Virus record (IMG/VR): IMGVR_UViG_3300037484_000435
Span: 1-64,000 of that record
DNA from: a virus
Lineage: Duplodnaviria > Caudoviricetes
Direction: 5' to 3' (one strand)
DNA: 64,000 nt
A program made the translations under genes and the position numbers. Shown here piece by piece: positions 61,069 through 61,212 of this stretch (its first letter is position 1; each line of letters begins with the position of its first letter). The notes under the pieces were generated by a model that worked only from the letters and a program-made list of their open reading frames with translations, did no database searches and had not been told where the DNA came from.

Positions 61069-61212
61069 CCGAGTAGCGGTAGAGAGGACTTCTTCATTTG
61101 TTTATATCACAAACGGCCTGGGTTCGAGTCCCAGTGGTCACCCCAAAAATCTATGGTGGCCATAGCTCAACTGGTAGAGAAAAAAGTTATGCCTTTCGAT
61201 TCATTCTCTCGG
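61069..61212 (+). ncRNA. Y-RNA-like unit U3 containing a circularly permuted tRNA-His-like core
   Basis: CCGAG/CTCGG outer stem, TAGCGGTAG, GAGAGG/CCTTTC; T-arm 61118-61134, acceptor 3' strand + CCA 61135-61145, G-1 + acceptor 5' strand 61155-61162, D-arm 61165-61180. Confidence 0.75.

What the first reader, a model, noticed from the sequence alone, without database searches (positions are those of the whole stretch)
61069..61212. Circularly permuted tRNA-His-like core with retained CCA and G-1 inside unit U3
Seen in sequence: the 3' half of a tRNA (T-arm CTGGG-TTCGAGT-CCCAG at 61118-61134, TGGTCAC, C73, CCA at 61143-61145) comes BEFORE the 5' half (G-1 at 61155, GTGGCCA, TA, D-arm GCTC-AACTGGTA-GAG). 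The halves are joined by a 9-nt linker (AAAATCTAT), and the acceptor strands pair 7/7 (one G:U). G-1/C73 and GGTGGC..TAGCTCA..TGGTAGAG match the bacterial tRNA-His pattern. The anticodon arm is replaced by the long motif-bearing stem. Established knowledge: T-arm, then loop-closed acceptor, then D-arm is the order described for the tRNA-mimic domain of YrlA. Inference: the retained CCA and G-1 suggest recent origin from two tandem tRNA-His halves, i.e. a Y RNA being born from tRNA genes. Cleavage in the linker could give a two-piece RNA with a chargeable or ligatable acceptor end.
Basis: partly seen in the sequence, partly recalled or inferred. Interest (0 to 1): 0.85.

Follow-up and report, generated by a model that had tools for sequence, protein, structure and literature searches.

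The report
Phage Y RNA with permuted tRNA-His
A 545-kb phage carries, upstream of its Ro60 gene, a small structured RNA gene whose core is a complete tRNA (histidine type) written in permuted order with its CCA end and inter-tRNA spacer still in place; it is a known kind of RNA (a tRNA-mimicking bacterial Y RNA), but an unusually complete one that fits the published idea that these RNAs arose from tandem tRNAs.

Summary
T-arm, 3' acceptor strand, C73, CCA, a 9-nt linker, G-1, 5' acceptor strand, UA and D-arm lie in that order at 61118-61180.

It is one unit (U3, 61067-61214) of about 15 scaffold-sharing RNA units. A phage Ro60/Rsr gene lies 5.9 kb downstream on the same strand. Its closest known kind is the YrlA-type bacterial Y RNA.

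What I add:
- A related huge phage (Rsr 80% identical, three assemblies) has an ortholog. It has five compensatory double changes, no broken pairs, and C73-CCA, linker and G-1 kept. So the element is real, old and under selection, not "being born".
- The anticodon arm is not replaced. A 5-bp/7-nt-loop hairpin (61097-61113) is kept, and de-permuting gives a full cloverleaf. The Y scaffold enters at position 26/27.
- His ancestry is supported by G-1:C73, by an acceptor stem matching annotated phage tRNA-His genes, and by the ortholog's AUG loop. It is not proven.
- Cleavage in the linker has a published precedent (M. smegmatis YrlA, RNase P plus CCA addition). It is untested here.

Metatranscriptome contigs of relatives cover the array and almost none of the flanking genes. 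Earlier notes of this scan describe the same array on this genome only. I class it as a new variant of a known kind, of moderate to high interest.

The parts
61067..61073 (+). Outer (terminal) stem, 5' strand UACCGAG. It pairs with 61208-61214.
   Evidence: RNAalifold on U3 plus its ortholog. One C-G to U-A double change.
61074..61081 (+). 5' internal loop UAGCGGUA carrying the RGCG motif shared by all units. This is the candidate Ro60/Rsr contact, a degenerate form of GNCGAAN0-1G.
   Evidence: The motif RGYG...T(A/T)CTTC marks about 15 units: 27 of the 77 + strand hits in the whole genome lie between 60.8 and 66.2 kb. The motif definition is from PMC4201824. Binding is inferred.
61082..61087 (+). 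Inner stem, 5' strand GAGAGG. It pairs with 61192-61197 (CCUUUC).
   Evidence: one G-C to A-U double change and one G.U to A-U single change in the ortholog.
61088..61096 (+). ACUUCUUCA, the unit-wide conserved (U)ACUUC-type motif at the junction. Its role is unknown.
   Evidence: alignment with sister units.
61097..61113 (+). Anticodon-arm-like hairpin: stem UUUGU/ACAAA and 7-nt loop UUAUAUC with U33. The ortholog's loop is UUAUGAC.
   Evidence: ARAGORN uses it as the anticodon arm. One U-A to A-U double change.
61114..61117 (+). Variable loop CGGC. The ortholog has AGGUU; the genuine tRNA-His of that phage has AGGUC.
61118..61134 (+). T-arm CUGGG-UUCGAGU-CCCAG.
   Evidence: The 49:65 pair is C-G here and G-C in the ortholog.
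61135..61145 (+). 3' acceptor strand UGGUCAC, discriminator C73, and encoded CCA.
   Evidence: BLAST of this part hits almost only annotated tRNA-His genes. Unchanged in the ortholog except for a compensated A71 to G.
61146..61154 (+). 9-nt linker AAAAUCUAU, the relic inter-tRNA spacer and the predicted processing site.
   Evidence: Only a one-A indel against the ortholog. 8 of its 9 bases (AAAATCTA) recur in the 10-nt spacer GAAAATCTAA of the tandem tRNA-Asn genes at 56085/56096, and it is similar to a sister unit's linker CAACATCTAT. Cleavage is inferred from the M. smegmatis precedent.
61155..61164 (+). G-1, 5' acceptor strand GUGGCCA, and U8-A9.
61165..61181 (+). D-arm GCUC-AACUGGUA-GAGA plus A26.
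   Evidence: 18 of 19 positions (with U8-A9) match the ortholog. By BLAST the arm is of generic, Trp-like type.
61182..61214 (+). 3' junction, inner stem 3' strand (61192-61197), 3' internal loop GAUUCAUU, and outer stem 3' strand (61206-61214).

Best explanation
U3 (61067-61214, + strand) is one gene in an array of about 15 Y-RNA-like noncoding RNAs upstream of the Ro60 (Rsr) gene of a 545-kb phage.

It has two modules. The first is a scaffold shared by all units: a terminal stem, an RGCG-containing internal loop, an inner stem and a UACUUC-type motif. This scaffold is the presumed Ro60-binding part. The second is a cargo: a complete, circularly permuted tRNA-type cloverleaf in the order anticodon-arm-like hairpin, variable loop, T-arm, 3' acceptor strand, C73-CCA, 9-nt spacer, G-1, 5' acceptor strand, D-arm. 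The scaffold helix enters between positions 26 and 27.

The cargo most likely descends from the junction region of a tandem tRNA pair of histidine type, as the published dimeric-tRNA model for YrlA origin proposes. It has been kept under selection since before the two known phage lineages split.

It probably works like YrlA. The scaffold binds Ro60, and the L-shaped tRNA mimic presents a tRNA elbow to a tRNA-binding partner.

The acceptor stem has the full 7 bp plus G-1:C73, an encoded CCA and a conserved single-stranded spacer. I therefore think it more likely than not (about 50-55%) that host RNase P cuts 5' of G-1 and exonucleases trim back to CCA. That would give a nicked, two-piece Ro60-bound RNA with a tRNA-like 3' end, as shown for M. 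smegmatis YrlA.

Shown here: the anatomy, conservation and covariation, array membership, the linked Ro60 gene, and RNA-level presence of array units in relatives.

Inferred: Ro60 binding, cleavage, and any charging.
For: Anatomy was verified. De-permuted U3 and its ortholog both give full ARAGORN cloverleaves.

The Ro60 ORF (528 aa, TROVE + vWA_Ro60) lies at genome 67097-68683 on the same strand.

Two sister units, at 65654-65768 and 66204-66327, match Rfam YrlA over its full length at 38 bits. U3 shares long scaffold stretches with the second of them.

The scaffold motif is confined to 60.8-66.2 kb on the + strand.

The ortholog is identical in three independent assemblies. It has five double compensatory changes, three wobble-compatible single changes and no newly disrupted pairs in 33 bp. 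The tool count on 32 pairs gives four double changes and 96.9% of cells paired, against 41-53% when the partners are slid; the fifth double change, T-stem pair 49:65, is misaligned there. RNAalifold recovers the same helices. The stretch from C73 to G-1 matches at 13 of 14 positions, whereas the scaffold is 64-70% identical.

For His type:
- C73 occurs only in tRNA-His among this phage's tRNAs.
- The 3' part hits annotated tRNA-His genes in several phage genera.
- The acceptor matches AR1, F1M1E and KLB31 tRNA-His genes at 6 of 7 bp, including the G4.U69 wobble.
- The ortholog's loop UUAUGAC is one base away from a His loop.

For spacer ancestry, one search shows the likeness to the tRNA-Asn spacer. 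A natural tandem tRNA-His pair (L065) looks the same at its junction.

RNA contigs of relatives lie on the array, with only one short piece on flanking coding DNA.
Against: The Rfam YrlA score for U3 is only 18 bits and partial. That is the level reached by ordinary tandem-tRNA junctions in the same genome.

The sister units' 38 bits is matched by a true tandem tRNA-His pair, so the model score alone proves little.

The exact GNCGAAN0-1G motif is absent; U3 has AGCGGUAG.

U3 lies 5.9 kb from rsr, outside the 4-kb criterion of Chen et al.

The single-sequence MFE is not better than shuffles (z = -0.82).

His ancestry is not unanimous. The D-arm is generic. The phages' own tRNA-His genes rank only 3rd-4th and 19th among their tRNAs. 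The ortholog's BLAST hits are of mixed isotype. Sister units also have a G:C or G:U eighth pair, so G-1:C73 may be a family habit.

There is no RNA evidence for U3 ends. Only one 51-nt contig piece from a relative touches it, and no RNA run holding U3 was listed.

Only two distinct sequences exist, so the shuffle control is weak (36/500).
Confidence: 0.72

Rival explanations
1. U3 is a closed-loop tRNA mimic that is never cut. It acts as an intact YrlA-like Y RNA, and the 12-nt CCA-plus-linker loop is conserved because a protein or another RNA binds it, not because it is processed.
For: Most YrlA RNAs are thought to keep a closed acceptor loop. Sister units have closed tetraloops: CAGC at 65683, and UUCG in the relative at L011 8794. 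No RNA ends are seen at the linker.
Against: U3 has what RNase P needs, and what M. smegmatis YrlA has: a 7-bp acceptor stacked on a 5-bp T stem, an encoded C73-CCA and a single-stranded leader-like spacer. The spacer resembles a real inter-tRNA spacer of the same genome, which must be processed.
Confidence: 0.3
2. U3 is a true permuted tRNA gene. After its ends are joined and the linker removed, it matures into a decoding tRNA, like the permuted tRNA genes of Cyanidioschyzon merolae.
For: De-permuting gives a complete cloverleaf with CCA. The phage encodes an RtcB ligase and a CCA-adding-type enzyme. Circle-like RNA contigs exist for two sister units. The possibility is raised in 10.1101/312249.
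Against: The anticodon differs between the orthologs (AUA against AUG), and neither is the His anticodon GUG. The roughly 60-nt scaffold would remain inserted at position 26/27. No splicing-type endonuclease is known in bacteria. No circle was seen for U3 itself.
Confidence: 0.04
3. U3 is a decaying remnant of two tandem tRNA genes, with no function of its own.
For: Tandem tRNA junctions give the same weak YrlA score, and a real tandem tRNA-His pair looks alike at its junction.
Against: No complete flanking tRNAs exist here. The element is embedded in the array's shared scaffold. All 13 nucleotide changes in paired positions preserve pairing across two phage lineages.
Confidence: 0.03
4. The junction is an assembly artefact that joined two tRNA halves.
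For: None found.
Against: A DNA contig of a public run spans 60851-61201 with no differences, although this run may be the source sample. The same arrangement is found in three independent assemblies of a related phage.
Confidence: 0.005

Closest known systems
YrlA-type bacterial Y RNAs (Rfam RF02553; Chen et al. 2014, PMC4201824; structure PDB 6CU1, preprint 10.1101/312249)
   Same: A two-module RNA encoded next to Ro60/Rsr on the same strand. The stem formed by the 5' and 3' ends carries a GNCG-type motif. The effector module has T-arm, loop-closed acceptor-like stem, UA and D-arm in that order, with tRNA elbow nucleotides. YrlA RNAs are known in phages (22 phages in 2014).
   Different: It scores far below the family threshold (18 bits against 69). 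The Rsr motif is degenerate (AGCGGUAG). U3 keeps an anticodon-arm-like hairpin, a full 7+1-bp His-type acceptor, an encoded CCA and a 9-nt spacer instead of a short closing loop. It is one of about 15 units, whereas known loci have 1-4. It lies 5.9 kb from rsr.
Mycobacterium smegmatis YrlA (RNase P-cleaved, CCA-tailed Y RNA; PMC4201824)
   Same: [quoted passage not shown] The product is a two-piece Ro60-bound RNA whose 5' piece ends in CCA.
   Different: In M. smegmatis only the C is encoded and CA is added after cleavage. Here the whole CCA is encoded, followed by a conserved spacer and G-1. Cleavage is shown there and only inferred here.
Tandem (dimeric) tRNA genes, e.g. the tRNA-His pair on locus L065 and the tRNA-Asn pair at 56011-56173 of this window
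   Same: The order is T-arm, 3' acceptor strand, NCCA, a spacer of about 10 nt, 5' acceptor strand, D-arm. The spacer sequence is nearly the same as that of the tRNA-Asn pair.
   Different: There is no complete tRNA on either side. [quoted passage not shown]
Circularly permuted tRNA genes of Cyanidioschyzon merolae and some other algae and archaea (Soma et al. 2007, as cited in 10.1101/312249)
   Same: The 3' part precedes the 5' part, joined by a short linker after CCA-like sequence. The termini pair with each other.
   Different: Those mature through a bulge-helix-bulge splicing endonuclease and ligation into normal decoding tRNAs. Here the anticodon is not conserved, the termini form a Y-RNA scaffold, and no such endonuclease is known in bacteria or phages.

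Membership tests
YrlA (Rfam RF02553) | T-arm, then loop-closed acceptor-like stem, then UA, then D-arm, flanked by a stem formed from the RNA's two ends | tested here: met
YrlA (Rfam RF02553) | Reaches the family's gathering score (69 bits) | tested here: not met
   18 bits, over model positions 30-81 only. Sister units reach 38 bits. A true tandem tRNA-His pair also reaches 38.6 bits.
YrlA (Rfam RF02553) | 5' motif GNCGAAN0-1G, the proposed Rsr contact | tested here: not met
   U3 has AGCGGUAG. All units share only an RGCG core. The motif definition is from PMC4201824.
YrlA (Rfam RF02553) | Encoded within about 4 kb of the Ro60 ortholog on the same strand | tested here: inconclusive
   Same strand, but 5.9 kb upstream. 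U3 is part of a continuous array, interrupted by homing-endonuclease genes, whose last tRNA-like unit ends about 0.75 kb from rsr.
YrlA (Rfam RF02553) | tRNA tertiary-contact nucleotides (G18G19, T54-Psi55-C56, U8, A14, Levitt pair) | tested here: met
   All are present in the sequence. The exception is the Levitt pair, which is A15.C48 in U3 and A15-U48 in the ortholog. The fold itself was not tested.
YrlA (Rfam RF02553) | Bound by Rsr/Ro60 | not testable with these tools
   Needs co-immunoprecipitation or EMSA with the phage Rsr.
tRNA-His | G-1 paired with C73 | tested here: met
   Positions 61155 and 61142, conserved in the ortholog. C73 is unique to tRNA-His among this phage's 39 other ARAGORN-called tRNAs.
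tRNA-His | GUG anticodon | tested here: not met
   AUA in U3 and AUG in the ortholog.
tRNA-His | Sequence closest to tRNA-His genes | tested here: inconclusive
   The U3 3' part and acceptor match annotated phage tRNA-His genes. The D-arm does not. The ortholog gives mixed isotypes. The phages' own tRNA-His genes are not the top match.
tRNA-His | Collinear 5'-to-3' cloverleaf | tested here: not met
   Permuted at position 26/27.
Permuted tRNA genes (algal/archaeal type) | 3' part precedes 5' part, joined by a short linker | tested here: met
Permuted tRNA genes (algal/archaeal type) | Conserved functional anticodon | tested here: not met
   The anticodon differs between the orthologs.
Permuted tRNA genes (algal/archaeal type) | Bulge-helix-bulge at the paired termini, and a circular intermediate | not tested
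   No BHB search was done. Circle-like contigs were seen only for two other units.

The most novel reading that the evidence does not exclude
U3 is matured like a permuted tRNA. RNase P and 3' trimming open the acceptor loop. The scaffold ends may also be joined by the phage RtcB, since circle-like RNA contigs exist for two sister units. The result would be a Ro60-bound, tRNA-His-like molecule with G-1:C73 and a free CCA end that host HisRS can charge. That would link a Y RNA to aminoacylation and would be the first permuted-tRNA maturation pathway in a bacterial virus.
Probability: 0.1. Interest if true: 0.9.

Novelty: new variant of a known kind. Interest (0 to 1): 0.6.

Why it matters
Two questions about bacterial Y RNAs remain open: where their tRNA-like module came from, and what that module does.

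The published model says it came from a dimeric tRNA transcript. [quoted passage not shown] U3 bears on both.

U3 still shows every part the dimeric-tRNA model needs. It has the anticodon arm, T-arm, 3' acceptor strand and CCA of a 'first' tRNA. It has a spacer like a real inter-tRNA spacer of the same genome. It has the G-1, 5' acceptor strand and D-arm of a 'second' tRNA. These features are kept by selection in two phage lineages.

That makes the processing idea directly testable on a defined 150-nt RNA, through RNase P cleavage, trimming to CCA and possibly histidylation.

It also places the element in a huge phage with 40 tRNA genes, RtcB and a CCA-adding-type enzyme. Ro60/Y-RNA systems there may serve tRNA quality control or repair during infection.

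Tried and rejected
- **Close relatives by DNA or protein pattern.** There was no DNA match in annotated phages. A single-protein pattern scan of viral contigs found nothing. Exact and degenerate U3 patterns found nothing in viral or metagenome contigs.
- **Looser permuted pattern.** The pattern CCCCA-N5-14-GGNGGCNATAGCTCA gave 13 viral and at least 120 metagenome loci. Of the 93 loci scanned, only one had a T-arm and complementary strands (L065), and that is an ordinary tandem tRNA-His pair. No further ortholog was found.
- **More distant Rsr-bearing contigs.** For P0001, P0005, P0006, P0008 and P0013 there was no DNA, or no upstream DNA.
- **E. coli genomes.** BLAST gave no match.
- **Recent copy of the phage's own tRNA-His.** Rejected, because His ranks only 3rd-4th and 19th among the phages' tRNAs.
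- **His-Trp dimer as donor.** I considered this because tRNA-His and tRNA-Trp lie 9 nt apart just downstream of rsr, and some T4-like phages matched across a His|Trp junction. I rejected it because the phage tRNA-Trp 5' part is unlike U3.
- **Single-sequence folding.** The energy is not better than shuffles. The structure rests on covariation instead.
- **RNA runs holding U3 itself.** None was listed.
- **Promoter and terminator scan.** Nothing above background was found next to U3, which is consistent with a processed polycistronic precursor.
- **Two papers.** PMC10870794 and PMC6047535 are not held in the library.

Full report
**Setting.** The window is the first 64 kb of a 545,322-bp virus record, a huge phage. 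It carries 40 ARAGORN tRNA calls, 17 of them in the window and one of them U3 itself. From about 60.85 kb to 67.1 kb there is almost no coding sequence apart from three homing-endonuclease genes: LAGLIDADG at 60027-60851 and 63154-63960, and HNH at 64295-64903. At genome 67097-68683, on the same strand, lies a 528-aa ORF with TROVE and Ro60-vWA domains, which is a Ro60/Rsr ortholog. Its nearest cellular relatives (about 43% identity) are from Bacteroidota such as Spirosoma, Hymenobacter and Chitinophaga.

**The observation.** The order is T-arm (61118-61134), 3' acceptor strand (61135-61141), C73, CCA (61143-61145), linker AAAATCTAT, G-1 (61155), 5' acceptor strand (61156-61162), TA, D-arm (61165-61180). 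The acceptor pairs 7/7, or 8/8 with G-1:C73. I scanned both strands of the whole genome for T-arm + perfectly paired 7-bp loop-closed acceptor + D-arm. Only three sites came up, all in the array before rsr: 61118, 65683 and 66235. Tandem tRNA junctions reach at most 6/7. A fourth unit of this kind, at about 65990, has a GG-less D loop and fell outside the scan's criteria.

The anticodon arm is not replaced. Directly 5' of the T-arm are a 4-nt variable loop (61114-61117) and a hairpin with a 5-bp stem and a 7-nt loop, UUAUAUC (61097-61113). ARAGORN uses this hairpin as an anticodon arm. I joined 61155-61181 to 61097-61145, that is, I undid the permutation. ARAGORN then draws a complete canonical cloverleaf ending in C-CCA, both for U3 and for its ortholog. 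So the cargo is a whole tRNA, permuted at position 26/27, and the scaffold helix enters there.

**Family context.** Rfam's YrlA model aligns to 61117-61180 only weakly: 18 bits, model positions 30-81, E 0.1 for the genome. Two other units, at 65654-65768 and 66204-66327, match the model end to end at 38 bits, just upstream of rsr. U3 is a clear paralog of the second. They share the 5' stretch GAGT(A/G)GCG(G/A)TAGA(G/A)AGGA(C/T)TTCTTC and the 3' stretch TGCCTTTCGATT. The scaffold signature RGYG...T(A/T)CTTC marks about 15 units between 60.8 and 66.2 kb. Of the 77 + strand hits in the whole genome, 27 lie there, and none of the 75 - strand hits does.

A caution is needed on the model scores. They are not discriminating. 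Ordinary tandem tRNA junctions in this genome score about 16 bits. A natural tandem tRNA-His pair from a metagenome (L065) scores 38.6 bits over the full model. Three things separate U3 and its sisters from tRNA dimers: the absence of full tRNAs on either side, the complementarity of the two acceptor strands, and the shared scaffold.

**Comparative evidence.** A related huge phage (Rsr 80% identical, a 658-kb contig and others, ENA assemblies) has a syntenic array. It has an ortholog of U3 at L011 2383-2525, identical in three independent assemblies. This rules out an assembly artefact.

The two orthologs are 75% identical over the unit, about the same as the rsr DNA (74.8%). By segment, the tRNA core is 81% identical, C73 to G-1 matches at 13 of 14 positions, U8-A9 plus the D-arm at 18 of 19, and the scaffold strands at 64-70%.

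All changes in helices preserve pairing. There is one double compensatory change in each of five helices:
- outer stem, C-G to U-A;
- inner stem, G-C to A-U;
- anticodon-like hairpin, U-A to A-U;
- T stem, C-G to G-C;
- acceptor stem, A-U to G-C.

There are also three wobble-compatible single changes and no disruptions. RNAalifold finds the same helices unaided. On the tool count, 96.9% of cells pair, against 41-53% when partners are slid by 1-3 columns. That count gives four double changes against 0-1 when slid; the fifth, in the T stem, is hidden by a one-column misalignment. With only two distinct sequences the shuffle control is weak (36/500).

The conclusion is that this is a functional structured RNA that predates the split of the two phages. 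That contradicts 'recent origin / being born'.

**Is it His-like?**

In favour:
- G-1:C73 is kept in both orthologs, and among this phage's tRNAs only tRNA-His has C73.
- BLAST of the native 61098-61181 against annotated phage genomes returns, for the T-arm + 3' acceptor + CCCA part, almost only genes annotated tRNA-His, from several genera.
- Three of those genes (phages AR1, F1M1E, KLB31) share U3's acceptor GTGGCC-/-GGTCAC, including the G4.U69 wobble, plus C73-CCA. De-permuted U3 is 75% identical to the AR1 tRNA-His, with a higher alignment score than to any tRNA of its own phage.
- The ortholog's anticodon-like loop UUAUGAC is one change (G34A) from a His loop. Its variable loop AGGUU resembles the AGGUC of that phage's genuine tRNA-His.

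Against:
- The D-arm is generic, with mostly tRNA-Trp hits.
- The phages' own tRNA-His genes rank only 3rd-4th and 19th.
- The ortholog's BLAST hits are of mixed isotype.
- Sister units also tend to have a G:C or G:U eighth pair.

I put His ancestry at about 65-70%.

**The linker.** AAAATCTAT is nearly the spacer (GAAAATCTAA) between the two tandem tRNA-Asn genes 5 kb upstream in the same genome. A sister unit (about 65990-66070) has CAACATCTAT. The genuine tRNA-His leader ends in CTCTAT before G-1. That sister unit's ortholog in the relative has C73-CCA, whereas the window's phage has CAA. Another sister has an 18-nt loop here and a UUCG tetraloop in the relative. The array therefore shows a series from spacer-with-CCA to closed tetraloop, with U3 the least derived and the only one in which CCA, spacer and G-1 are kept in both lineages.

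This fits the published model that YrlA arose from dimeric tRNA transcripts (10.1101/312249, citing Sim and Wolin 2018). There is one refinement. In U3 the acceptor-like stem comes from the two acceptor strands of like tRNAs, not from the spacer.

**Mechanism.** By analogy with YrlA (PMC4201824; 10.1101/312249), the scaffold would bind Ro60 and the tRNA-like L-shape would engage a tRNA-binding partner. Chen et al. showed that M. smegmatis YrlA, the one with a 7-bp acceptor stem, is cut by RNase P in vivo and in vitro, and that its 5' piece gains CCA.

U3 has the same 7-bp stem, plus an encoded CCA, a conserved single-stranded spacer and G-1:C73. From established knowledge of bacterial RNase P, the 3' RCCA of a precursor pairs with RNase P RNA, and G-1:C73 directs cleavage one nucleotide upstream in tRNA-His precursors. 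I therefore consider a nick at 61154/61155, followed by trimming to 61145, more likely than not. It is not shown.

G-1:C73 is the main HisRS identity element (established knowledge), so charging is conceivable. The phage has no HisRS. It does encode RtcB and a CCA-adding-type nucleotidyltransferase elsewhere in the genome.

**RNA evidence.** One sediment DNA run holds the stretch exactly, with a contig spanning 60851-61201. It may be the source sample. Four sediment metatranscriptome runs hold short contigs, 90-97% alike and so from relatives. These lie on the array (60979-63077) and almost nowhere on the flanking coding DNA (58500-60850 and 63100-64000). That argues for stable small RNAs rather than DNA carry-over. 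U3 itself is touched only by one 51-nt piece (61168-61218), and no RNA run holding U3 was listed.

In one run, two other units assemble as cycles with k-1 end overlap. One cycle, 280 nt long, joins 61606 to 61327, exactly the two ends of that unit's terminal stem. The other is about 196 nt, around 62109-62263. These are either circular RNAs or exact tandem duplicates in the relative, and this is unresolved.

**Novelty.** Several things are already published:
- phage Ro60 genes with Y-like RNAs;
- YrlA as a 'circularly permuted tRNA';
- the dimeric-tRNA origin model;
- RNase P cleavage with CCA addition in one species.

New here is a unit that keeps the complete set of tRNA parts, with evidence of selection on them, inside an unusually large array in a huge phage. 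Those parts are the anticodon-arm-like hairpin, the His-type 7+1-bp acceptor, the encoded CCA and a real spacer. I class it as a new variant of a known kind. It fails the formal Rfam threshold and the exact Rsr motif, so I describe it as YrlA-like in working, not as a certified family member.

**Earlier notes.** Earlier first-stage notes of this scan on the same genome describe the array and the permuted tRNA bodies. I re-tested the parts I use. A look-up by sequence found no look-alike in other genomes of the scan.

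Noticed in passing
window 61327-61606 and about 62066-62263: In one sediment metatranscriptome run, contigs from a relative form cycles with 30-nt end overlap. One 280-nt cycle joins 61606 to 61327, the two ends of that unit's terminal stem. A second cycle is about 196 nt. 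These are either circular RNAs (the phage has RtcB at 473977-475053) or exact tandem duplicates in the relative.
   Followed up: partly
window 60979-63077 against 58500-60850 and 63100-64000: Contigs from four metatranscriptome runs lie on the non-coding array. Only one short piece (59838-59937) lies on the flanking genes. The array units of relatives are therefore present as RNA.
   Followed up: partly
window 61855-61920: A tRNA-like gene with perfect acceptor, D and T arms but a shrunken anticodon arm (Rfam tRNA 45 bits with 7 nt in place of 13). ARAGORN does not call it, and no CCA is encoded.
   Followed up: partly
window 27045-27254 and ORF 27236-28483: A full-length HEARO RNA (125 bits) is followed by a 415-aa ORF. 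This is probably an IscB/HNH-type element inside the phage genome.
   Followed up: no
window 47126-47202: A tRNA with anticodon CUA (called 'Pyl' by ARAGORN; Rfam tRNA 63.6 bits). It may be an amber suppressor, so TAG use in this phage may deserve a look.
   Followed up: no
genome 68730-68819 (L010 8730-8819), just downstream of rsr: The phage's genuine tRNA-His(GUG) is 90 nt long with a long, paired variable arm, which is unusual for tRNA-His. It is followed 9 nt later by tRNA-Trp. The relative's tRNA-His is a normal 77-nt class I tRNA.
   Followed up: partly
window 60027-60851, 63154-63960; genome 64295-64903: Two LAGLIDADG and one HNH homing-endonuclease genes sit between units of the RNA array.
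   Followed up: partly
window 61213-61221 and after most units (e.g. 61054-61063; genome 66107-66117): A conserved inter-unit motif TAACAAGAA(A/T) follows the terminal stem of most units. It may be a processing signal for a polycistronic precursor.
   Followed up: no
L065 920-1082 (metagenome contig): A natural tandem tRNA-His pair with a 10-nt spacer scores 38.6 bits, full length, on the Rfam YrlA model. Sub-threshold YrlA hits cannot be told from tRNA dimers by score alone.
   Followed up: yes
genome 65945-66116 and L011 8094-8265: A sister unit has a T-arm (GTAGG-TGCAAGT-CCTAC) and a U8-G9 that resemble the phage's own tRNA-Cys (48169-48243). Different units may carry tRNA bodies of different ancestry, or may have exchanged sequence with tRNA genes.
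   Followed up: partly
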